From Sphyrna mokarran (lineage: Eukaryota): a stretch of DNA of 64,000 nt. Below are positions 344 to 62,994 of this stretch, piece after piece; position 1 is the first letter of the stretch; the number at the start of each line of letters is the position of its first letter. The stretch spans positions 22,816,001-22,880,000 of the forward strand of contig JAGIQG010000022.1 of the NCBI GenBank assembly GCA_024679065.1, given 5' to 3'. The translations under genes and the position numbers were made by a program. The notes beneath the pieces were generated by a model. The model was not told where the DNA came from and ran no database searches. It was given only the letters and a program-made list of their open reading frames with translations.

Positions 344-633
344 AAAGTTTTATAATGTTTATTTATTAGTGTCACAAGTAGGCTTACATTAGCACTGCAA
401 TGAAGTGAAAATCCCTTATTCTGGCACCAGTTCAGCTGCAGGGAGAATTTAGCATGGCCAATGCACCTAACCAGCACGTCTTTCGGACTGTGGGAGGAAA
501 CTGGAGCACCTTGAGGAAAGCCATGCAGACACAGGGAGAATGTAAAGACTCCAAGAGTCAGTGACCAAGCACGAGAATCGAACCTGACTTCCTGGCTCTG
601 TGAGGCAGCAGTGCTAATCACCGTGCCATTGTG
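344..633 (-). mobile_element. V-SINE (HE1-like head and core) with alternative Rex1-like tail
   Basis: Minus strand has a tRNA-like head (GGCACGGTGATTAGCACTGCTGCCTCACA...GGTTCGATTC), V core (GGTTTCCTC...CCAGTTTCCTCCCACAGTCC) and tail ...CCTACTTGTGACACTAATAAATAAAC. Confidence 0.85.
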
Positions 634-2309
634 CAATTCCTAAATCTTATGCTTTAGATCTATCCTTTTTATTGTCTTGCGTCCTTATGAGCTTCATTTT
701 TATTTTGCATGAGCTTGTCAAATATTACTGAATTTGCATTTCATGTGGGTGCACAATACTCCTGTGATCTCTTAGCATGGGGTCAAAATTGACGATTGGA
801 TCCATATTGGAGACGCGGCCTCTCGTGGGTTGTCCCCACACTGAGATTTATTCAACTCCTGGAACAATGTACGAGCTTTCATTTTGTACAACTTTCAAAA
901 GCATTTTGGTAAAACTGTATTCCAATTACCGATTCTTAGTTTCCCTGCCAGCAATCCAGTTTCCATGGCAACATTTATTAGCATTGCGACTGAACATGGA
1001 GTTTTGGCTGTAAACCTCATTTAAAAAAAAGGCTAAATGACCAGAGGGGCACGTAAGCTGCTCTTGTTGAAAACATTAAGCCACGATTCACTACACCTTA
1101 CTTTTTCATTCTTCTGTTCACGAGATTAACCTACCTTGATTTTAATCACATTTTCCCCCACCAGCATGTACAAATGGGTTTATTGATTCTTTTTACTTCT
1201 GGTTCTTCACTTCATTAGCCAGAGTGTGAAAAGCTAGGTTCAAAAGATTATTATCCACTGCTCTGGGTCTTTCTTTCATGTTTTTGCGATAGCTGTAACT
1301 TGGTGTGATCATCAAAGACTCTGACTTAAGTGTCACACATACTTTTTTTTCAACTTGACACTTGATCAAAATGTCACATTATGTTAGGCCATGCAGATGA
1401 CTGAAGTCGATGGGTTGCAAAGTCGATAAAAGACAATCAAGTACTTGAAGATGAGATTTTGAGGAATGGGTCTAAAAGGAATATACACAGTTGAATGCAA
1501 TAAAGTGAACTAATTAGAAGATGCAGACTTAAATAAAATGATTGTTGCATAAATGTTTTTAGACCATGGACATTTGCTTCCAAGAAAAAGTTTGGTGTTC
1601 CATTTTAGTACACCATAGACTTTGCAAAAAGATTCATTTTGTGTTTTCATACTTTAAAAATATTTCATTCTTTGGCCATGATACATGAACTAATACATTA
1701 ACAATAGATTTCTCCTCCACTGCACACAACTTATGATTAAAGCAGGCTCATGAACTTGTGCAAATTAGGGTGCCATATGTCAGGAGGGGTCGAATGGCAT
1801 TTTAACTGGGTCCTGAGCAGGGAAAATCCCTATGGCATTCTCACCAGTTTGAGGCAGTTTTGTGTTGATCTTCAAACAGGTTAAGTGCAAAATGCTCCTT
1901 CTGTGGTGCAAAGAGGAGCAGAAGTAGTTCTCCAGGCAAAGTGGAGAAAGATGCAGCCCTCTCTTCCAGTTAACTCTTCTTTTCAACATGTTTGGAAACT
2001 GCTTCCTGATAATTGTCTGCTGAGGGCTTCTCAAAATCCTGGTCCTCACTGGAAGTGGACTAGAGGCATTTAAACGAAGCACAAGAGGTGAAAGATCTTG
2101 AGCTCAAAACCAATGCCTACATTTGGCATTCACCTGAAGCTGTCCCTGCTAGCCAGGAATCCACACAGGTTAAATTCAGTCTCTAAGTCTCTGCAGCATC
2201 TCTCTGAGGTGACGTGATCTCTGAGATCATGAGGGGTACTTTATAGATGCCGATCCCTCCAACCTTGTCTTCCTCTCAAATGAACCCAATATTAATTGGC
2301 ATTTATACA

Positions 2310-9120: not shown

Positions 9121-9707
9121 ATGATGATGTGGCTATAGAAAGGGTCATGCGTCGGGAGTGCAGGTGTTCTTCCTAGGGGTATAGGCGGAGTACAAGTCTG
9201 GAGTAGCCACTCAGCTGGTGAATAAAGTGGTGTTTGTTGTAAGTCCTTATTGTCAGTGTTTGGGAGCCCAGCACTTTTATATAGAGGGGAAAAAAATTAC
9301 CGAAAACATAAAGAGATCATAAAGATTCATGGTCACTACAGGAAACTGTTGGGTATCAAGATGTTTCACCATATGTTCCCGCACTTATGCAGTCGGCCCA
9401 TCTGTCTTCAGGGAACTTTAAAGATTTTGATGATCTTTTCTGTGGTTATTAAACCAACAGCTGTTGTCATTAATGGAGAATACGCTTTTTTGCAGTTCAC
9501 AAACTCTTATGATAAATCCAACCTTGCCTTCTAATATTTTTCCTTAATTGCCATTTATTAAAAAAAACCTACAGTAAGCCTTATGTAGATTAATTACCAG
9601 TGTCCTTGTAGAAGATGACACTGCAATTAACCCAGGTTTATTGTTGGTACATCTCAACAATGCTTCAAGCTTGGTCAATTTACACCTAAATTGTTTTGGT
9701 TGAATTG

Positions 9708-9955
9708 GGTGGCATGGTGGCACAGTGTGTAAACACTACTGCCCCTCAACACTATGGATCTGGGTTCAATTCCCAAATTGGGTCACTCTGCAGAGTTTGC
9801 GCATTCTCCCCATATCTGCATGAGTTTCCTTTGAGTGCTCTGGTTTTCTCCCACAGTCTGAAACTCGTGCTGGTTAGGTGTATTGGTCATGTTGAATTCT
9901 TTGTCAGTGTACCTGAACAGGAGCCAGAGTGCGGCAATTAGGAGATTTTCACAAG
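9708..9955 (+). mobile_element. V-SINE, alternative-tail subfamily
   Basis: Head and core followed by CAGTGTACCTGAACAGG...GGAGATTTTCACA. Confidence 0.8.
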
Positions 9956-14325: not shown

Positions 14326-14600
14326 GTCCGGCACAAGAGATTGTCATGCAAGATTAAAACACATGGGTCTGGAGGAAGGGTATTGAGATGGACAGAAAAC
14401 TGGTTGGCAGAGACAAAGAGTAGGAATTAATGATTTCTTTTCAAATTGGTAGGCAGTAACTAGTGGAGTGCCACAGAGATCGATACTGGGACCTCAACTA
14501 TTCACAATACACATTGATGATTTGGATGAGGATACAAAATGTAACATATTAAAGTTTGCAGGTGATACCAAGTTGGATGGGAGGGTGAACAATGATGAGG

Positions 14601-15832
14601 TAGGTCGTGCCTCACAAACCTTATTGAGTTTTTTGAGGAGGTGACCAAAGAGGTAGATAAGGGTAAGGCAGTTGATGTTGTGTATATGGATTTTAGCAAA
14701 GCGTTTGATAAGGTTCCCCATGGTAGGCTACTGCAGAAAGCGCAGATGCATGGGATTGAAGGTGATTTAGCAGTTTGGATTAGGAATTGGTTAGCTGATA
14801 GAAGACAGAAGGTGGTGGTTGGTGGGAAATATTCAACCTGGAGTGCAGTTACAAGTGGTGTACCTCAAGGATCTGTTTTAGGGCCACTGCTGTTGGTCAT
14901 TTTTATAAATGACCTAGATGAGGGTGTAGAGGGTTGGATTAGTAAATTTGCTGATGATACCAAAGTGGGGGGAGTTGTAGACAGCGAGGATGGATGTTAC
15001 AGTTTGCAGAGGGACATAGGTTGCAGAGCTGGGCCATGAGGTGGCAAATGGAATTCAATACGGATAAGTGTGAGGTGATTCACTTTGGTAGGAATAACAG
15101 GCATATGAAATATAGGGCTAATGGAAGGACCCTTAATAGTGTTGTCGAGCAGAGGGATCTTGGGGTACAAGTACATAGCTCTTTGAAAGTTGGCACTCAG
15201 GTTGATAAAGTTGTTAAGAAGGCGTACGGTGTGTTAGCTTTTATTGGTAGAGGGATTGAATTTAGGAGCAGTGAGGTTATGTTACAACTGTACAAAACTC
15301 TGGTGCGGCCGCACTTGGAGTATTGCGTACAGTTCTGGTCGCCGCATTATAAGAAAGATGTGGAAGCATTGGAAAGGGTGCAGAGGAGGTTTACCAGGAT
15401 GTTGCCTGGTATGGTGGGAAGGCCTTATGAGGAAAGGCTGAGGGACCTGAGGTTATTTTCATTAGAGAGAAGAAGGTTACGCGGTGACCTAATTGAGGCG
15501 TATAAGATGATCAAGGGATTGGATAGGGTGGATAGTGAGAGCCTTTTTCCTCGGATGGTGATGACCAACACGAGGGGACATAACTTTAAATTAAGAGGTG
15601 GTAGTTATAGGACGGATGTCAGAGGCAGGTTCTTTACACAGAGGGTGGTGAGGGCGTGGAATGCCCTGCCTGCAGCAGTTGTGGACTCGCCTACTTTGGG
15701 GACATTCAAATGTTTGGTGGATAGGCATATGGATGATATTGGAGTAGTTTAGGTTAGAGGGTCCACTGGCTGGCGCAACATCGAGGGCCGAAGGGCCTGT
15801 ACTGCGCTGTAATGTTCTATGTTCTATGTTCT
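14601..15832 (+). mobile_element. Young 5'-truncated CR1 LINE (HER1-like) with (TATGTTC)n tail
   Basis: RT motifs [24 protein letters not shown]; 3' end GGGCCGAAGGGCCTG...AATGTTCTATGTTCTATGTTCT; only AGG is shared at the junctions. Confidence 0.95.
14641..15752 (+). pseudogene. CR1 ORF2 reverse transcriptase (partial), one frameshift near 15015
   Basis: ORFs 14641-15039 and 14994-15752 join if 4 nt (ATAG) are restored in GACATAG^GTTG, giving DIDRLQSW. Confidence 0.9.
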
Positions 15833-16254
15833 AGGATGCAGAGATGCTTCAGAATGTCCTGACAGGTTGGGTGAGTGGGCTAATCAATAGTGGATGCAGT
15901 ATAATTTGGATAAATGTGAGGTTATTTACTTTGGAAGCAAAAACAAGAAGACAGATTACTACCTGAATAGTTATGAATTGTGAGAGGGAAGTGTGTAGCA
16001 GGACTTGGGTATCCTTGTGCATCATTCACTGAAAGTAAGCATGGAAGTGCAGCAGGTGGTAAAGAAGGTAACTGGCCTTCATTATGAGAGATTTTGAATA
16101 CAGTAGCAAGGATGTGTTGCAATTATACGGGGCCTTAGTGGGGTCACACCTAGAGTATTGTGTGCAGTTTTGATCTTCTTTTCTGAGGAAGGATGTTCTT
16201 GCTTTCAAGGGAGTGCAGCAAAGGTCTACCAGGCAGGGATGGCGGGACTGATGT

Positions 16255-16578
16255 GTGACACATGACAGCGCAGAGTCACTGAGCAGAGACTGATAGCCAA
16301 ATTTCGCACACATAAGGACTGCCTCAACCGGGATCTTGGGTTCATGTCACAGTATCTGTAAACCCCATGACTTGCCTGGGCTTGCAAAATCTCACTAACT
16401 GTCCTAGCTGGAGACAATACATAGAACATAGAACATAGAACACTACAGCACAAACAGGCCCTTCGGCCCACAAGTTGTGCCGAACACATCAAAACCTACC
16501 CAGCCATAGACCTATCTATAACCCCCAATCCCATTGGATCCCATATACTCATCCAGAGTACACATCTCTTCAACCTGT
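16255..16578 (+). mobile_element. Penelope-like element ORF C-terminus and 3' region
   Basis: Translates QRRVTEQRLIAKFRTHKDCLNRDLGFMSQYL*, a typical PLE C-terminus; split by the 16422-16558 insert. Confidence 0.75.
16422..16558 (-). mobile_element. Short young CR1 3' tail insertion
   Basis: (CATAGAA)n followed by CAGGCCCTTCGGCCC; TACA duplicated at 16418-16421 and 16559-16562. Confidence 0.85.
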
Positions 16579-18119: not shown

Positions 18120-19173
18120 AAGAGCCCTGATATCTGGTAGCTCTTTAGAAATGGCATGCACCCGAGCCCCATTTTGCCCTTGAATTCCTGCTTAAGGGAT
18201 TGATACTAACATTTAAGCGATAACGTATCATCTTGGGGCACCTAAGTTGCATTCCTTGGTTTGCATTACTTCTAGCACCATCCACCCTCCTCGAGGCCAA
18301 GACATCTCATCTGATTCAGCATTCTGGCCTCCATTTTGACCAAAGAAGTGCAAATGAACAGGTTTGAGATTCCCAGCCCCACTTGACTTGCCCTCTCTGA
18401 CATGCCTGGTCCTGTAAGGAATGGATAGACATTTCACCCCTGACAATGCCAGCTGGAAATTGTCAACAAGGGTTGGAAACTGGCATGCCACGATCTCTTT
18501 GCAGATGGCTCCACTGGGACTTCCATAGAACCCCATAGAGTCCGTACGGTGCAGAAAGAGACCATTTGGTCCATTGAGTGAAATTGTGGGAAGAACCCAA
18601 GGAAACTGTCAAGGAAATTTGGCTCCATTGTATGTATTTTGGAAATCCAAAATCCAAATGCTCTCAGTGATCTTTTATGAGGAAGGAATTGCTGCATTCT
18701 CAGTTGAGCATTATTTTGAATACATTCCTTTTTTGTGCAAGCTTTGCGTGAATTGCAAAACAGCAGAAATAATTCTTTTTGTATGATTCCATATCCTTCT
18801 ACTGAAATCTCTCAGTGCCAGGGATCAGGGTTCAATTCCCGGTTGGGTCACTGTCTATGTGGAGTTTTCACATTCTCCCTGTGGCTGTGTGGGTTTCATC
18901 CAGGTGCTGCAGTTTCCTCCCATTGTCCAAAGATGTGTGGGATAGATAGATAGATCAGCCATGCTAGATTGTTCCTTAGTGTCAGGGGGACTAGCTAGGA
19001 TAAACGCATGGGGTTGTTAGGGTGGGCATGGGTGGGATTCATAGCAGTGCATAGAAACCTTACGGTATAGAAAGAGGCCACTTCATCTGCACTAACTACA
19101 ATCCCACAAGGCCTTACGCCATATCCTTACATATTTACTGACTAATTCTTCTAATCTACATATCTACATATCT

Positions 19174-21038
19174 GACGCAAATCTTTGTCTCTTCCTTGGA
19201 CACAGGTGAGGTCCCAGAGGACTGGAGGATAGCAAACGTAGTACCGTTGTTTAAAAAAGGTCAGAGGGATCACCCAGGGAACTATAGGCCGGTGAGCTTG
19301 ACTTCAGTTATAGGTAAGCTAATGGAGAGGATCCTTAGGGACAGGATGTATGAGCATCTGGAGCGCTGCAATCTGATCAGGGATACGCAGCATGGCTTCG
19401 TCAAGGGGAAGTCTTGTCTTACGAATCTGGTGGAATTTTTTGAAGAAGTGACAAAAACAGTTGATGAAGGACAGGCTGTTGATGTCGTCTACATGGATTT
19501 CAGTAAGGCGTTTGACAAGGTTCCTCATGGTAGACTGATAGAGAAGGTGAAGGCGCATGGGATACAGGGTCGGGTATGTAGATGGGTCGAAAACTGGCTC
19601 GGGAGGAGGAGACAGAGGGTAGTAGTGGAAGGCTCTTTTTCCGGCTGGAAGCCTGTCACTAGTGGAGTGCCACAAGGCTCAGTACTAGGTCCTCTTCTAT
19701 TTGTGGTCTACATAAACGACTTGGAAGTAGGGGTAGGTGGTGAGATCAGCAAATTTGCTGATGACACCAAGATGCTTGGATTGGCGGGTACAGAAGAGCA
19801 GTGTCAGGCAATACAACAGGACATAGACAGGTTGGTAGATTGGGCAGATAGATGGCAAATGGAATTTAATCCGGAAAAATGCGAGGTGATGCATTTTGGC
19901 CGGAAAAATGTAGAAGAGAATTATAGGATAAAAGGTAAAACTATAAGGAGCATAGAGACGCAGAGAGACTTGGGGGTGCAGGTTCACAAGTCTCTGAAGG
20001 TGTCCTCACAGGTGGAGAAGGTGACAAAGAAGGCGTATAGTATGTTAGCTTTCATAGAAAAGGGTATAGAATATAAGAGTAGGAGTTTGATGTTGCAGTT
20101 GTATACAACTTTGGTTAGGCCTCACTTGGAATACTGCGCCCAGTTCTGGTCTCCGTACTATCGGAAGGATGTGGAGTCCTTGGAGAGAGTGCAGAGGAGG
20201 TTTACCAGGATGCTGCCTGGTATGGAAGGACTGTCTTATGAGGAACGATTAAATAGACTGGGGTTGTTTTCCCTTGAAAGACGTCGGCTTAGAGGGGATC
20301 TCATAGAGGTGTATAAGATTATAAGGGGTATAGATAGAGTAAATGGAGGTAAACTTTTTCCACCTTTAGAAATGGATAGGACGAGAGGTCATGGCCATAG
20401 GGTGAGGGGGGCTATGTATAGGACGAATATTAGAGGGCAGTTTTTCACACAAAGGGTAGTGGGGGTGTGGAATGCACTGCCGAGTAAGGTGGTGGGAGCA
20501 GGCACGCTGGGGCTGTTTAAGGGTCTCTTGGACAGCCACATGAGCGGTATGCAGATAGAGGGATATATTAGGACTGTTTAACTACGGCTTTTTTCCACAG
20601 GTAATTCGGTCCATAATTTGAGCACGCATTCGGCAGGTGGTGCGGGTACAGCTCTTGGATGTTGATTCATGGGTTGCCTGGTACCTCATGTCGTATATGA
20701 GTGCTTTATGTGGACCACCTGAAGGGCACCATGACAGCTCAGAGACTATCGATGTGGCTGTGCAGACACTTGGAATTGGGCCGGTGTCTGCGGGAGTTTG
20801 CGCGTTCTCCCCGTGGTTGCGTGGGTTTTCTCCGGGCACTCCGGTTTCCTCCCACAACCCAAAAATTCGCTCTTAGGCTGATTGGGTAACAAATTGTCCC
20901 TATGGTGAAAATTTTCCAAATTAGGATTAATATATATTATTATATAGGACTATTAAAATAGGATAATGATTTGGTATTACGGTGGCGCGGGCTCGTTGGG
21001 CCGAAGGGCCTGTTTCCCGTGCTGTGCTGTGTTGCTTA
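19174..21038 (+). mobile_element. Young 5'-truncated CR1 LINE with ~455-nt 3' UTR; 8-bp TSD
   Basis: TSD ACATATCT at 19166-19173 and 21039-21046; open ORF2 segment; 3' end GGGCCGAAGGGCCTGTTTCCCGTGCTGTGCTGTG. Confidence 0.95.
19196..20581 (+). CDS. CR1 ORF2 reverse transcriptase domain (5'-truncated, no endonuclease, no true start)
   Basis: 461 uninterrupted codons with [44 protein letters not shown] and FFTQRV..WN.LP. Confidence 0.92.
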   Translation: MDTGEVPEDWRIANVVPLFKKGQRDHPGNYRPVSLTSVIGKLMERILRDRMYEHLERCNLIRDTQHGFVKGKSCLTNLVEFFEEVTKTVDEGQAVDVVYMDFSKAFDKVPHGRLIEKVKAHGIQGRVCRWVENWLGRRRQRVVVEGSFSGWKPVTSGVPQGSVLGPLLFVVYINDLEVGVGGEISKFADDTKMLGLAGTEEQCQAIQQDIDRLVDWADRWQMEFNPEKCEVMHFGRKNVEENYRIKGKTIRSIETQRDLGVQVHKSLKVSSQVEKVTKKAYSMLAFIEKGIEYKSRSLMLQLYTTLVRPHLEYCAQFWSPYYRKDVESLERVQRRFTRMLPGMEGLSYEERLNRLGLFSLERRRLRGDLIEVYKIIRGIDRVNGGKLFPPLEMDRTRGHGHRVRGAMYRTNIRGQFFTQRVVGVWNALPSKVVGAGTLGLFKGLLDSHMSGMQIEGYIRTV

Positions 21039-22010
21039 ACATATCTCAGTATACTAAGGGACATTTTAACATGGCCAATCAACCTAACCTGCACATCTTT
21101 GGACTGTGGGAGGAAACAGGAGCACCCGGAGGTACGTATACAAACACAAGACGAATGTGCAAACTCCACACAGACAGTGACCCAAGCCGCGAATCAAACC
21201 CAGGTCCCTAGAGCTGTGAAGCAGCAGTGCTAACCATTGTGCTATCGTAGTGGGATTGTGGTTGGTGCAGACTCAATGGGCCAAATGGACTTCTTGTGCA
21301 CTGCAGGATTCTATGAATCAAACATTAGCTGAGAATTACATAACATAGACTATTCATCAAGTTTTAGTAGAGTTTGTGCTAATCTTGGGAAAAATTTTTC
21401 TTGTTATTCTTACTTACAATTTGAGGTGCAATGCAACTCAACTAGAAAAGAATGCAGTAAATGAGGAAGATAATTGCAGCGTAACAAAATCTGTTCATCA
21501 GATTAAAATATGGCTAATATTTTACGTTCCATAATGCAAAGTACATCAAAATATTTTTAATTTTAATTTTGTGTTTGATTCCAGTTAGTGTGTAGGTTGA
21601 ATATTTACAGATCAACTATTGTAAGTCGTAAAGAGTCTCCTAGAGTGTTGTGGAGTGGGAGCCCCCACTGTATGGTACTTCAATGTCCTGATCTTGGTAA
21701 CTGGCACTTTGTTAGATTTCACAGTTTTCCACCGGGGAATTTCCACACTGAATGCAGTTGATGATCACATTAATTTTGAAAGCTCAATGAATTTTTCTAT
21801 GATTTCTGAGAATTCATTCAAGAGGTTAAGGTTTGTGGCCAGTTGTTTCAGTCCATAATTGTTCTTGGGGCGAGCAGGGGGATATGAGGAGTTAGCAGCT
21901 TCAGCATATATACAACTGGCTGTGAATTCTTTGAACACTGTCACTTCAGGTATTGAATTGTCCATTGAAAATGTTACAGAAGCATGTCAACCCATGGGCC
22001 TCTTTGTCAT

Positions 22011-27805: not shown

Positions 27806-28618
27806 TGAAATTTTTTTTAAAAATTATCAAAATGTATAATATCAGCTAATTGATTTAAGCCTAGATGCTTTAAATTGATCAATGTCCACCATAGAATGAT
27901 AGGTAGATAGATGGATATTGTATGGATGCACTAAATAATTGCAGCATAGTATCGCCAACAGTAATAGGCCTTCATTTCATAAACTGCACTGATTCTTTTT
28001 GAGGTTTCTGCATGAATTAGTTTTCTATCCATGCATAATATTGTACTGCTTTACTTTTGACTGGTTTCAGAGCTTAACACATCTGCCAATTGTCAAAAAC
28101 ATCTCAAGAATTATTTGATTTGGTTCAAATTCCAGCAGGAAGCCAAACAATTTATCCCTTCGATACTTCTGATAACCAGATGGGAACATTGGCCACAGGA
28201 TCAGGCCTAAAGTGTTATATACCACACTTAAATCTTGTTGGTGAGCAAATAAGATATTTTAAAAGTAGCACACCAATATAAATGTAACTACTCAACTGGG
28301 ATCACATAAGTTTCTTTCCAGTTTTCAAGTGGAACACATTTGATTATATAGAGAAAACTCTGCTTGCTGCTTGAAAGCTTTTTTTTTTAATCCCAAGTCA
28401 TGAAGGAGAATTAAGTACATTAGAGCAGATCAACATGGAACAACTGAACTAATGCCAGATGCATTCTACAACCCAATTTTCCATCAATATAGGGGAAGAA
28501 TATCTGACTCCACATAGTTGGTGTTAGTCGTTGCTCCCAGGGAGTGCATGTTTGTAGCTCTGGGATGTGGGTAAGGCAACATGCAGGATTCTTTTTATTC
28601 ATTCGTAAGATGTTTGAC

Positions 28619-28885
28619 ATTGTGGCACAGCGGTTAGCTCTGCTGTCTCACCGTGTCAGGGGTCCGGGTTCAATTCCTGGGTCACTGTTTGTGCAGAGTC
28701 TGCACATTCTCCCCATGTCTGCATGGGTTTCTTCGGGTGCTCCGGTTTGTTTCTGCAGTCTGTAAGACATGCTGGTTAGATGGATTGGCCATGCTAAATT
28801 CTCCCTCTGTATCCGAACAGATGGCGGATGGGGGATTTTCATTGTAGCTTCATTTCAGTAGGCTTACTTGTAACAGTAATAAATT
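28619..28885 (+). mobile_element. V-SINE, alternative-tail subfamily
   Basis: Core followed by AAATTCTCCCTC...GGGGATTTTCA...TACTTGTAACAGTAATAAA. Confidence 0.85.
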
Positions 28886-35904: not shown

Positions 35905-36155
35905 GTTTATTTCTTAATTAGTCATAAGTAGGCTTACATTCACATCATAATGAAGTGACAGTGAAAATCCCCTACTCGCCACTCTCCAGCACACTACACT
36001 GAGGGAGAATTTAGCACAGCCAATGGACCTAACCAGTACGTCTTTTGGACTGTGGGAGGAAACCGGAGCACTCAGAGGAAACCCACACAGATACGGGGGG
36101 GAATCGTGCAAATTCCACACAGACAGTGAATCAAGCCGGGAATTTAACCCAGTCC
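35905..36155 (-). mobile_element. V-SINE, alternative-tail subfamily
   Basis: Same structure as 344-633. Confidence 0.85.
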
Positions 36156-53869: not shown

Positions 53870-54720
53870 AAACTACGCAGAGCATTGGTGAGACCACATC
53901 TAGATTACTGTGTGCACCTTTGGTCTCCTTATTTATAGGGATATTTTGCCTGCATTGGAGGAAGCTCATGAAAAGTTTCATTTGGGTGATTGCTGGGATA
54001 AAAGGGTGAGCAGGTTGGAGTTCAGAGAATGAGAGGTGATGGTATTAGGTGGCATGGTGACACAATGGTTAGCACTGCTACCTCATAGCGCAGGGACCCG
54101 AGTTCAATTCCTGGCATGGGTCACTGCCTACATAGTGTCGACACATTCTTCCCATGTTTGCATGGGTTTCCTCCAGGTGCTCTGGTTTCCCCTGTCAGTC
54201 CAAAGGATGTGCTGGTTAGGCATATTTGACCATACTAAATTCTCCTTCAGTGTATCTAAGCAGGTGCAGTAATATGATGACTAGGGGATTTTCACAGTAA
54301 CATCTTTGCAATGTTAATATAAGTCTACTTGTGACACTGATAAATAAACTTACAAAAAAATTATTGAAACATAAAGGATTCTGAGGTTACTTGAAAGAGT
54401 GAATGCTGAGAGAAAGTTTGTTCTTGTGGGGGAATCTAGAACCAAGGAGTACAGTTTCTATTTAAGGCAACAGTGAGAAGAAATTTCTTGTCTCAGGGTT
54501 GGTAATCTGGAATCCCCTATCTCTGCGACTAGTGGAGACTGGGTTATTGAAAATATTCAAGACTGAGTTGGACAAATTTGTGATCTACAGTGGAGTTGAA
54601 AATTATGGGGATAGGCATGGAAGTGGATTTATAGCTGCAATCAGTTCAGCCATAATATTATTAGATTGAGAGCCTTTTGGCCAATTCCTGCTGCTATTTC
54701 TTTTGATCGCATGTTCTTGT
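53870..54720 (+). mobile_element. Old CR1 3' end interrupted by an alternative-tail V-SINE (54048-54352)
   Basis: ALVRPHLDYC..LWSPYL trace; resumes LIET*RIL..LERV..E after the SINE. Confidence 0.75.
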
Positions 54721-61871: not shown

Positions 61872-62472
61872 TACCCAAACAAGGAAATGCTGGAAAATCT
61901 CAGCAGGGCTGGCAGCATCTGTAAGGAGGGAAAGGAGCTGATGTTTTGATTCCAGACAACCCTTTGTCAAAGCTAAAAGGCATCAAAAGTGGGAGATATT
62001 TGTACTGCGGTGGCGGGAATGAAAGATGAGTCATAGCCAGGGGAAAAGACTGCAGATAGTTATCCACAGAGAGTGTAAAGGGTGTGAATAGCCAAATGGC
62101 AGAGAAGCCGTGATTGATGAAGATATAGGGGATGGAAGGAGGGGTGGGAAATGGAATAGAGGTAGAAAATAGAAAAGGGGAAGCAGGAGGGGAGAAAAGG
62201 TAAGGGAAGGGGGATGAAGTAGGGGAAAAATGGAAGGAAGAAAAATGAAAAAAGACAATAAAAGGTAGAGAACAGTAAAAATTAAATAAAATAGAATGAA
62301 AATAAAGGAGGCCAAGATGGGGTTGAGCAAATCGTCTGAAGTTGTTGGATTCGATGTTGAGATCAGAAGGCTGTAAAGTGCCTAGCCGGAAGATGAGATG
62401 CTCTTCCTTCAGTTTGCATTGAGCTTCACCAGAATGTTGCAGCGAGCTAAGGACAGCCATGGGGGCAAGGGA
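61872..62472 (-). mobile_element. Penelope-like element 3' part (same family as 5287-6085)
   Basis: ORF 61900-62460(-) begins ..EAQCKLKEEHLIFRLGTLQPSDLNIE.NNF (PLE C-terminus), then a pyrimidine-rich tract and a hammerhead-like repeat. Confidence 0.85.
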
Positions 62473-62994
62473 AATCCTTGTAACTGAGCAAAATAAGCAT
62501 TCATCTACATATTTTGTGCAATTTAAAATATCCTCACTCTGCTGTGAAATATCAAGTTGACTTCCGATAAAGAAGAAATCAAGGATAGCATGGATATATT
62601 TTCACTGTCTGATAGAAGGAAGCTGGCCACTGAGGAATCAAGGGTATATTAATAACAGAACACAACATCTTCTGCAACATCAGATGAGATCAGTAATAAG
62701 ACTTTGAGATTTTATCATCGAGGAACAAAATTTTGAGGTGATTTGTGTTGTGGGAAATGCATAAACTGTTCTTGAGAAATTGCATCATTATAAAAGAAAA
62801 CAGACTACTTTTTCCCTGTCAGTGTTGATATATTGAATTGTATAACATTTGATTTTATGATACCTGCAATGCTCACAGTTTCTTGTTATGAACTATATAT
62901 GGCTGAAGGCAATCTTCAAGTTGAGTCCAAGATTCTCAAACCTCCATCCTCTCTTCCTCTTTATACGTCAGTTCTTTGGGACTGAGGATGTATC

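What the first reader, a model, noticed from the sequence alone, without database searches (positions are those of the whole stretch)
20582..21038. Young CR1 LINE carries the V-SINE core domain in its own 3' UTR
Seen: after the ORF2 stop (20581) come ~200 nt of unique sequence. Then 20785-20900 (TGTCTGCGGGAGTTTGCGCGTTCTCCCCGTGGTTGCGTGGGTTTTCTCCGGGCACTCCGGTTTCCTCCCACAACCCAAA...TTAGGCTGATTGG...AAATTGTCCC) aligns with the core of the HE1 SINEs. An AT-rich spacer unlike HE1 follows, then the CR1 stem-loop tail. There is no tRNA A/B-box head, the CpGs are intact (young), the sequence differs from local HE1 copies, and everything lies inside one TSD pair (ACATATCT), so it inserted as one unit. The other young CR1 (14601) has only an ~80-nt UTR. 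Established: the V domain is the conserved central part of V-SINEs, its origin and function are unclear, and SINEs usually share only tails with LINEs. Inference: this CR1 lineage either captured a SINE core and kept it, or reflects a LINE source of the V domain.
Basis: partly seen in the sequence, partly recalled or inferred. Interest (0 to 1): 0.8.

Follow-up and report, generated by a model that had tools for sequence, protein, structure and literature searches.

The report
Retrotransposon that swallowed its parasite SINE
A young shark-type jumping gene carries at its end what looks like the remains of a whole parasitic short element, of which only the long-mysterious conserved core is still well preserved, hinting that this core helps the RNA itself to jump.

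Summary
A 5'-truncated CR1-type LINE (19174-21038, ORF2 open for 469 codons, 8-bp target duplication) carries a V-SINE core at 20785-20900; 38 nt of it are letter-identical to a published fish V-SINE consensus.

A faint tRNA-head relic (20724-20784; 33/60 identical, B box deleted) and a decayed spacer flank the core, so the last 315 nt look like a whole V-SINE. The 'unique' part is a 124-nt hairpin (z -4.9).

Against the local SINE consensus the V core is 89% identical, head and spacer 51-55%; ordinary copies decay evenly (80-83%). The core keeps 5 of 6 ancestral CpGs (local copies 25/139) and all 9 hairpin pairs. The head and spacer therefore decayed before this insertion.

Best reading: an old SINE-to-LINE capture, inherited by a CR1 lineage, with selection keeping V. 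A LINE origin of V is unlikely. Four ORF2 relatives form a supported clade with it, but no second 3' UTR could be seen, so family status is inferred from one copy; the head signal depends on scoring scheme. Repbase/Dfam unchecked.

The parts
19166..19173 (+). Left target-site duplication ACATATCT (an extra copy at 19158-19165; the last 2 nt may overlap the element's first codon)
19174..20581 (+). 5'-truncated ORF2 of a CR1-type LINE: RT domain and C-terminal region, open to the stop; CpG o/e 0.49 (old fragments 0.07-0.13)
20582..20723 (+). Unique 3' UTR segment; 20598-20721 folds into one long imperfect hairpin (-56.9 kcal/mol, z -4.89)
   Evidence: no second copy in the window
20724..20784 (+). 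Probable decayed tRNA-derived SINE head: starts at SINE position 1, 33/60 identical (18 transitions, 9 transversions), 19-nt deletion over the B box, A box broken
   Evidence: significance depends on scoring scheme; not significant
20785..20900 (+). V domain. First 80 consensus positions (to about 20863) are 70/79 identical to the local consensus; the rest 25/37
20821..20855 (+). Central V hairpin with internal loops (9 pairs, pairing probability 0.85-1.0 in four contexts); probably the Vhc stem-loop of PMC4758252 (match inferred from the description, figure not seen)
20901..20979 (+). AT-rich spacer, colinear with the local SINE spacer at about 50% identity, 14 G>A against 1 A>G; weak support for homology
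20980..21038 (+). Stem-loop tail of the type shared by local CR1s and SINEs (GGGCCGAAGGGCCTGT also at 15785 and 16470)
21039..21046 (+). Right target-site duplication ACATATCT
21047..21250 (-). Older host SINE copy, head and V core (approximate 5' end), interrupted by the LINE
19040..19165 (-). Older host SINE copy, spacer and decayed tail, continuing on the other side of the insertion (approximate end)

Best explanation
An ancestor of this CR1 lineage acquired a complete V-SINE in sense orientation at its 3' end. The route was either SINE insertion into or just behind the 3' UTR, or a reverse-transcriptase template switch from full-length SINE RNA to LINE RNA. Because that SINE type ends in a CR1-type stem-loop, its tail could serve as the LINE's own ORF2p recognition site, so the chimera stayed mobile. 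Over many rounds of copying as a Pol II transcript, the Pol III head became useless (or harmful, by spawning competing short RNAs) and decayed, losing its B box; the spacer drifted to AT-rich. The V hairpin stayed under purifying selection as a cis-acting RNA element. The most likely benefit is RNA stability or assembly/delivery of the ORF2p-RNA particle. This copy is a recent, 5'-truncated TPRT product of that lineage that landed in an old antisense SINE. SHOWN: layout, target duplication, open ORF, V identity, uneven divergence, CpG retention, predicted folds, an ORF2 clade. PARTLY SHOWN: head relic, spacer homology. INFERRED: family-wide inheritance, selection, the route of capture, and the nature of the benefit.
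For: Segment identities to the local consensus are head 33/60, V1-80 70/79, V81-120 25/37, spacer 34/67, tail 31/44, whereas local copies average 80-83% in all four segments; V against head+spacer Fisher p=6e-8. CpGs: 5/6 intact and 0 deaminated against 25/139; this bounds post-insertion divergence at about 5%, far below the 45-49% in head and spacer. Seven substitutions in the 45-nt hairpin region leave all 9 ancestral pairs intact (chance 0.02). By eye, they fall at positions that also vary among published V-SINE families. Head relic: the best ungapped match in the 203-nt UTR starts at head position 1 and ends 2 nt before V; anchored alignment reached by 0-20 of 2000 shuffles and 1-10 of 2000 background windows, and by 0 of 482 ORF2 windows. 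By eye, 16 of 16 published fish V-SINE heads keep the A-box region and 15 of 16 a B-box-like motif, so a 55% head without boxes is outside the range of active families. ORF2 relatives P0121 (90%), P0125 (82%), P0122 and P0127 form a clade with the window protein (99/93); P0121 ends at the same position.
Against: Only one 3' UTR was seen. No second copy of the unique UTR was found in the window, in 9 loci from genome contigs (none closer than 65% aa, so not a test), among 78 protein hits to the antisense UTR frame, in a sense-frame search, or in plasmids and phages. The head signal is weak and was tested after being noticed: p=0.72 in the first gapped test and no nhmmer hit; significant at 5% in 32 of 54 scoring schemes (32 of 36 that allow one long gap cheaply, 0 of 18 that do not). 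Spacer homology: 26-142 of 2000 controls reach the score. The V segment as a whole folds no better than shuffles (z -0.68). The apparent compensatory outer pairs have near-zero probability in context, and a competing helix is preferred. One published head consensus (Ac1_MA) also lacks a B box. No functional data.
Confidence: 0.68

Rival explanations
1. One-off chimera made at this insertion: reverse transcription began on the RNA of a separate non-autonomous element (hairpin + head relic + V + spacer + tail) and switched to a CR1 mRNA just behind the stop codon. The V-bearing unit would be its own family and ordinary copies of this CR1 would have a short UTR.
For: Template-switch chimeras are an established route (discussed in PMC5499810). 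The unique segment shows no relic of a normal CR1 tail (169-525 of 1000 shuffles score as well). The other CR1 3' ends in the window and in the fetched vertebrate loci have short UTRs without V.
Against: It needs an unseen element family with a dead Pol III head; none occurs in 64 kb holding about 25 SINE copies. The switch would have to fall within about 16 nt after the stop. Selection on V without a Pol III head would still need explaining.
Confidence: 0.13
2. 3' transduction: a CR1 source copy sat upstream of an old genomic SINE, read through it and used its tail. The V part was later refreshed by gene conversion from a younger V-SINE. No selection on V is needed.
For: Explains the decayed head and spacer as neutral genomic decay. 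V domains have been proposed as recombination hot spots.
Against: Conversion from local SINEs would make V look like them, but it is 18% different at non-CpG sites and groups with no local copy (tree poorly supported). The tail is also CpG-rich and intact. Local neutral copies are no lower than 68% in any segment.
Confidence: 0.08
3. LINE source: the V domain is native to the 3' UTR of this CR1 lineage, and V-SINEs arose by adding a tRNA head to such an end.
For: SINE and LINE share V, spacer and tail in the same order and spacing. PMC5786205 proposes that SINE bodies come from LINE UTRs. The head relic is weak and could be chance.
Against: The probable tRNA-head relic upstream of V points from SINE to LINE. 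V-SINEs reach molluscs and cnidarians, far older than a shallow clade among shark/ray-type CR1s. Sister CR1s have short UTRs without V.
Confidence: 0.05
4. Whole-SINE capture happened and was inherited, but V is kept for no benefit to mobility: mutations are tolerated less there only because misfolding would disturb the neighbouring tail, or because of repeated conversion.
For: No assay exists. The second CR1 in the window is mobile without V.
Against: Head and spacer flank V and lie equally near the tail, yet decayed to about 50%.
Confidence: 0.05
5. A SINE inserted into this LINE copy after it integrated.
For: SINEs cover about 10% of the window.
Against: The V part is continuous with the only tail, inside the one target duplication. 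A later insert would be younger than the LINE, yet head and spacer are the most diverged parts.
Confidence: 0.01

Closest known systems
CR1-clade LINEs of cartilaginous fish (HER1, partner of HE1; listed in PMC3747384 Table 1)
   Same: RT domain; nearest named proteins from shark, ray, turtle and bird assemblies; stem-loop tail shared with local SINEs; 5' truncation; short target duplication.
   Different: 457-nt 3' UTR instead of about 80 nt, holding a long hairpin, a head relic and a V domain. Best full-length protein relatives are only 63-70% identical. The CR1 and HER1/HE1 labels are my inference; no reference sequence of either was available.
V-SINEs (HE1, DANA, Ac1, Racla; V and Vhc domains; PMC4824008, PMC4758252, PMC6887750)
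   Same: V core, central hairpin, order head-V-spacer-tail, about 315 nt in total.
   Different: No working A or B box; sits downstream of an ORF2 inside an autonomous-type element.
MER6/MER6A MITE (PMC6887750)
   Same: A V-SINE captured by another transposon and spread without its Pol III head.
   Different: The carrier is a non-autonomous DNA transposon with no RNA intermediate, and the authors found no sign of selection on it. Here the carrier is the retrotransposon that the SINE parasitises, the SINE tail seems to have become the LINE tail, and V is preferentially kept.
SINE- or tRNA-like pieces in other retroelements: RTE-1_DAn, Ingi-3_AC (PMC5786205); Cassandra/Helenus/Ajax TRIMs (PMC10886601)
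   Same: SINE-derived or small-RNA-derived sequence fixed in a retroelement family.
   Different: Those keep the promoter or lie in a 5' UTR or LTR. Here the promoter is lost and the body is kept in a 3' UTR. PMC5786205 states that no LINE sequence like a conserved SINE body had been found, apart from its RTE/Ceph case.

Membership tests
CR1-clade LINE | ORF2 with reverse-transcriptase domain | tested here: met
   Pfam RVT_1 E=3e-35
CR1-clade LINE | RT groups with vertebrate CR1 ORF2 proteins | tested here: inconclusive
   Top hits are bird, turtle, shark and ray RT proteins at 43-70%. None is labelled CR1 and no tree with named clade references was built; the label is recalled.
CR1-clade LINE | APE endonuclease and ORF1 | not testable with these tools
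   The copy is 5'-truncated inside ORF2
CR1-clade LINE | 3' stem-loop tail, 5' truncation, short target duplication | tested here: met
CR1-clade LINE | Multi-copy family with this 3' UTR | tested here: inconclusive
   ORF2 clade of 5, but no second UTR visible
V domain | Similarity to the about 80-bp vertebrate V core | tested here: met
   38-nt exact match to Ac1_SA; 70/79 to the local consensus
V domain | Vhc hairpin with internal loop | tested here: met
   9 pairs at probability 0.85-1.0. Prediction only; PMC4758252 reports that this hairpin was not predicted in whole fish V-SINEs.
V-SINE (as an element) | tRNA-derived head with working A and B boxes | tested here: not met
   No exact A or B box and no B box within 2 mismatches, against 19 of 23 local heads (box patterns recalled). 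Only a relic remains.
V-SINE (as an element) | Non-autonomous, own target duplication | tested here: not met
   Shares one target duplication with ORF2
HE1 subfamily of this genome | V groups with local copies | tested here: inconclusive
   Own branch of 0.22 in a tree with no well-supported forks; no HE1 reference sequence seen

The most novel reading that the evidence does not exclude
An autonomous CR1 lineage domesticated its own parasite: it absorbed a full V-SINE, disabled the Pol III promoter, took over the tail, and has kept the V hairpin by selection because V raises retrotransposition of any RNA that carries it. The V domain would then be a portable cis-acting mobility element rather than a host-exapted or Pol III-linked sequence.
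Probability: 0.45. Interest if true: 0.85.

Novelty: new variant of a known kind. Interest (0 to 1): 0.67.

Why it matters
Why SINE central domains stay conserved for hundreds of millions of years is open. The papers read list three ideas: help with the partner LINE, recombination hot spot, or benefit to the host. If this layout is a family trait, it is a natural experiment. V survived while the promoter beside it decayed, in an element that needs no partner and no tail exchange, which favours a cis role in the RNA's own mobility. It also offers a single self-contained reporter in which V can be deleted. It reverses the usual direction of exchange (LINE to SINE), and it warns that repeat annotators will split such LINEs into a LINE plus a false SINE.

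Tried and rejected
Looking for a second 3' UTR failed by every route available. In the window, none. The single genome-contig scan gave 9 loci; 8 are vertebrate-type CR1 pieces in bacterial assemblies, none above 65% aa, none with V behind the stop. phmmer with the antisense UTR frame gave 78 hits, all anchored on V, none matching the unique part beyond weak head-region similarity; some of these may derive from primate MER6 and nothing is drawn from those. A sense-frame search found no candidate. Plasmids and phages gave no match. Four motifs were absent from paper main texts, and the supplement of the 2026 CR1 survey held none of five sequence motifs. Rfam gave nothing real: the MIR7533 hit (36 bits against a cut-off of 230) reflects the inverted V pair of LINE and host SINE. 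ARAGORN found no tRNA. A relic of an original CR1 tail in the unique segment was tested and rejected. 'Compensatory' outer pairs of the V hairpin (2 of 10,000 random trials) were dropped as evidence: the structure was chosen after the fact and is not favoured in context. The V tree was uninformative. V-guided targeting into the host SINE was not pursued: one event, and SINEs cover about 10% of the window. Ogiwara 2002 was not held. The host genome, other shark genomes, Repbase, Dfam and the metagenome and viral contig collections stayed unchecked.

Full report
Verdict. The finding is real and somewhat richer than described. The last 315 nt of this young LINE look like a whole V-SINE in which only the V core and the tail are well preserved. 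That favours an old capture from SINE to LINE with selective retention of V. It rests on one copy.

Setting. The window looks like cartilaginous-fish DNA. This is inferred from the SINE type and from shark and ray proteins among the named relatives. The names CR1 and HE1 are my labels: no call returned a reference sequence for either, and PMC3747384 only lists HE1/HER1 as the shark and ray pair.

The element. It runs from 19174 to 21038 on the plus strand. ORF2 is open for 469 codons to the stop at 20579-20581 and has an RVT_1 domain. ACATATCT flanks it at 19166-19173 and 21039-21046, with an extra copy at 19158-19165. It interrupts an older minus-strand SINE just after that SINE's V core, and the two halves read on correctly. 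CpG o/e in ORF2 is 0.49, against 0.07 and 0.13 in two old CR1 fragments. So it inserted recently and as one unit.

The V segment. 20785-20900 hits 20 local SINE copies at 71-80%. It scores 147 against the local consensus, with a shuffle maximum of 66 in 2000. Thirty-eight nt (20819-20856) occur letter for letter in the pipefish V-SINE consensus in the supplement of PMC6887750. It is a V domain by an outside reference, not only by local likeness.

It is not a decayed genomic copy. I built the comparison set from 25 of the 46 merged hit intervals, leaving out short fragments, opposite-strand duplicates and the LINE's own V. Of these, 24 covered V, 23 the head, 16 the spacer and 15 the tail, after removing copies with another tail or an interruption. 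The LINE's V differs at 18% of non-CpG sites (copies: mean 15%), yet keeps 5 of 6 ancestral CpGs with none deaminated, against 25 of 139 in the copies (p about 0.001). This bounds divergence since insertion at roughly 5% (a rough estimate from five sites).

Structure. Seven substitutions fall in the 45 nt around the central hairpin; none hits the 9 ancestral pairs (chance 0.02). These pairs have probability 0.85-1.0 in four sequence contexts. By eye, the seven sites also vary among the 18 fish consensus sequences, so the LINE's V changes like a V-SINE family, not like a dead copy. Against this: the whole V folds no better than shuffles (z -0.68), and the outer 'compensatory' pairs are not favoured in context, so I do not count them. 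PMC4758252 describes a conserved Vhc hairpin in invertebrates but says it was not predicted within whole fish V-SINEs.

A first gapped test found nothing (p=0.72) and nhmmer gave no hit. Weak peptide similarity beyond V in fish-type hits prompted a transition-aware test. The best ungapped match of the local head in the 203-nt UTR starts at head position 1 (20724) and ends 2 nt before V: 29 of 59 identical, 17 transitions, 13 transversions; 2-111 of 1000 shuffles reach it, by scheme. Anchored at V, it is 33 of 60 identical with one 19-nt deletion over the B box; 0-20 of 2000 shuffles and 1-10 of 2000 background windows reach the score. Over 54 scoring schemes it is significant at 5% in 32: 32 of 36 with cheap long gaps, 0 of 18 without. 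No ORF2 window of 482 reaches it. I rate the relic likely (about 0.8), not proven, as the test followed the observation. No B box within 2 mismatches remains, against 19 of 23 local heads (patterns recalled). By eye, 16 of 16 published fish heads keep the A-box region and 15 of 16 a B-box-like motif.

Spacer, tail and unique segment. The spacer is colinear at about 50% with 14 G>A against 1 A>G; support is weak (26-142 of 2000 controls; p=0.002). The tail is 31/44 identical and folds as a stem-loop. The unique segment 20582-20723 folds into one long hairpin ending 2 nt before the relic (z -4.89, 0 of 200 shuffles; 0 of 200 background windows below z -4). It shows no relic of a normal CR1 tail.

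The key contrast. Identity to the local consensus is head 55%, V1-80 89%, V81-120 68%, spacer 51%, tail 70%. Neutral local copies average 80-83% in every segment. V against head plus spacer gives Fisher p=6e-8. A copy under about 5% old cannot have lost half its head and spacer in place, so this happened in the source lineage.

Is there a lineage? Full-length relatives reach only 63-70% (best 120 of 4036 shown). A C-terminal search among short proteins found P0121 (90%), P0125 (82%), P0122 (77%) and P0127 (71%). In a tree of 65 rows (hits with at least 110 aligned residues and 58% identity, out of 228 fetched, plus the two window proteins) they form a clade with the window protein at 99/93, apart from the second CR1. 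Their UTRs cannot be seen. All searches for a second UTR were blank, but none covered a shark genome, so this is not evidence of absence.

Mechanism. Most likely (0.68): a full V-SINE was joined behind ORF2, its CR1-type tail became the LINE's recognition site, the Pol III head decayed in a Pol II transcript, and V was kept by selection as a cis RNA element. Rivals: one-off template switch from an unseen non-autonomous family (0.13); transduction plus conversion (0.08); LINE source of V (0.05); capture without benefit (0.05); later SINE insertion (0.01).

Literature. PMC5786205 (parts 1-4 of 5 read) compared all Repbase LINEs and SINEs and found only RTE and Vingi 5' regions in SINE middles; it states that no sequence similar to conserved bodies had been found. 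PMC6887750 (parts 1-3 of 5; supplement searched and part 17 of 17 read) shows a headless V-SINE captured by the DNA MITE MER6, the closest precedent. Seen as passages only: PMC4824008 (supplement file 2 searched and part 2 of 4 read, file 1 not searchable), PMC11481361, PMC5499810, PMC3747384, PMC4758252 (first part of section 11, 48), PMC13343379 (supplement searched), PMC10886601, PMC7245038. Nine searches showed no report of a V domain in a LINE 3' UTR. Ogiwara 2002 was not held; Ogiwara 1999, Repbase, Dfam, subscription papers and bioRxiv supplements were not seen and could hold the layout.

Score. Interest 0.67; new variant of a known kind. One copy and a scheme-dependent head signal hold it back. 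A single BLAST against a shark genome would decide it.

Noticed in passing
window 20785-20900 (+) and 21075-21185 (-): The LINE's V and the host SINE's V form an inverted pair about 175 nt apart that could fold back in a read-through transcript; this caused the spurious MIR7533 Rfam hit.
   Followed up: partly
window 20598-20721: Long imperfect hairpin of unknown origin in the unique UTR (z -4.89); no Rfam family.
   Followed up: partly
window 440-634 (-), 9705-9896, 28616-28812, 35995-36152 (-), 54045-54254: Five local V-SINE copies share head and V with the rest but carry a different 3' tail, i.e. a tail-swapped subfamily.
   Followed up: no
window 19158-19173: The target-duplication octamer occurs twice in tandem at the 5' junction, perhaps from slippage during second-strand joining.
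   Followed up: no
window 20901-20979: The spacer differs from the SINE consensus by 14 G>A and 1 A>G, a strongly one-sided drift.
   Followed up: no
window 20857-20862 with 20882-20887: A second V helix has 6 Watson-Crick pairs in the LINE against 5 plus a mismatch in the SINE consensus; the same strand can also pair upstream, so two folds may compete.
   Followed up: partly
P0008, P0060; loci L001-L008: Vertebrate-type CR1 sequence filed under bacterial names in public protein and genome records, most likely contamination.
   Followed up: partly
window 14599-15833 and 16420-16500 (-): The second CR1 has a frameshift near 15018 and sits inside an older CR1 fragment; a third CR1-type tail lies at 16420-16500 on the minus strand.
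   Followed up: partly
window 61900-62601 (-): A 233-codon open frame contains a stretch that I recall as Penelope-like retroelement C-terminus; not tested.
   Followed up: no
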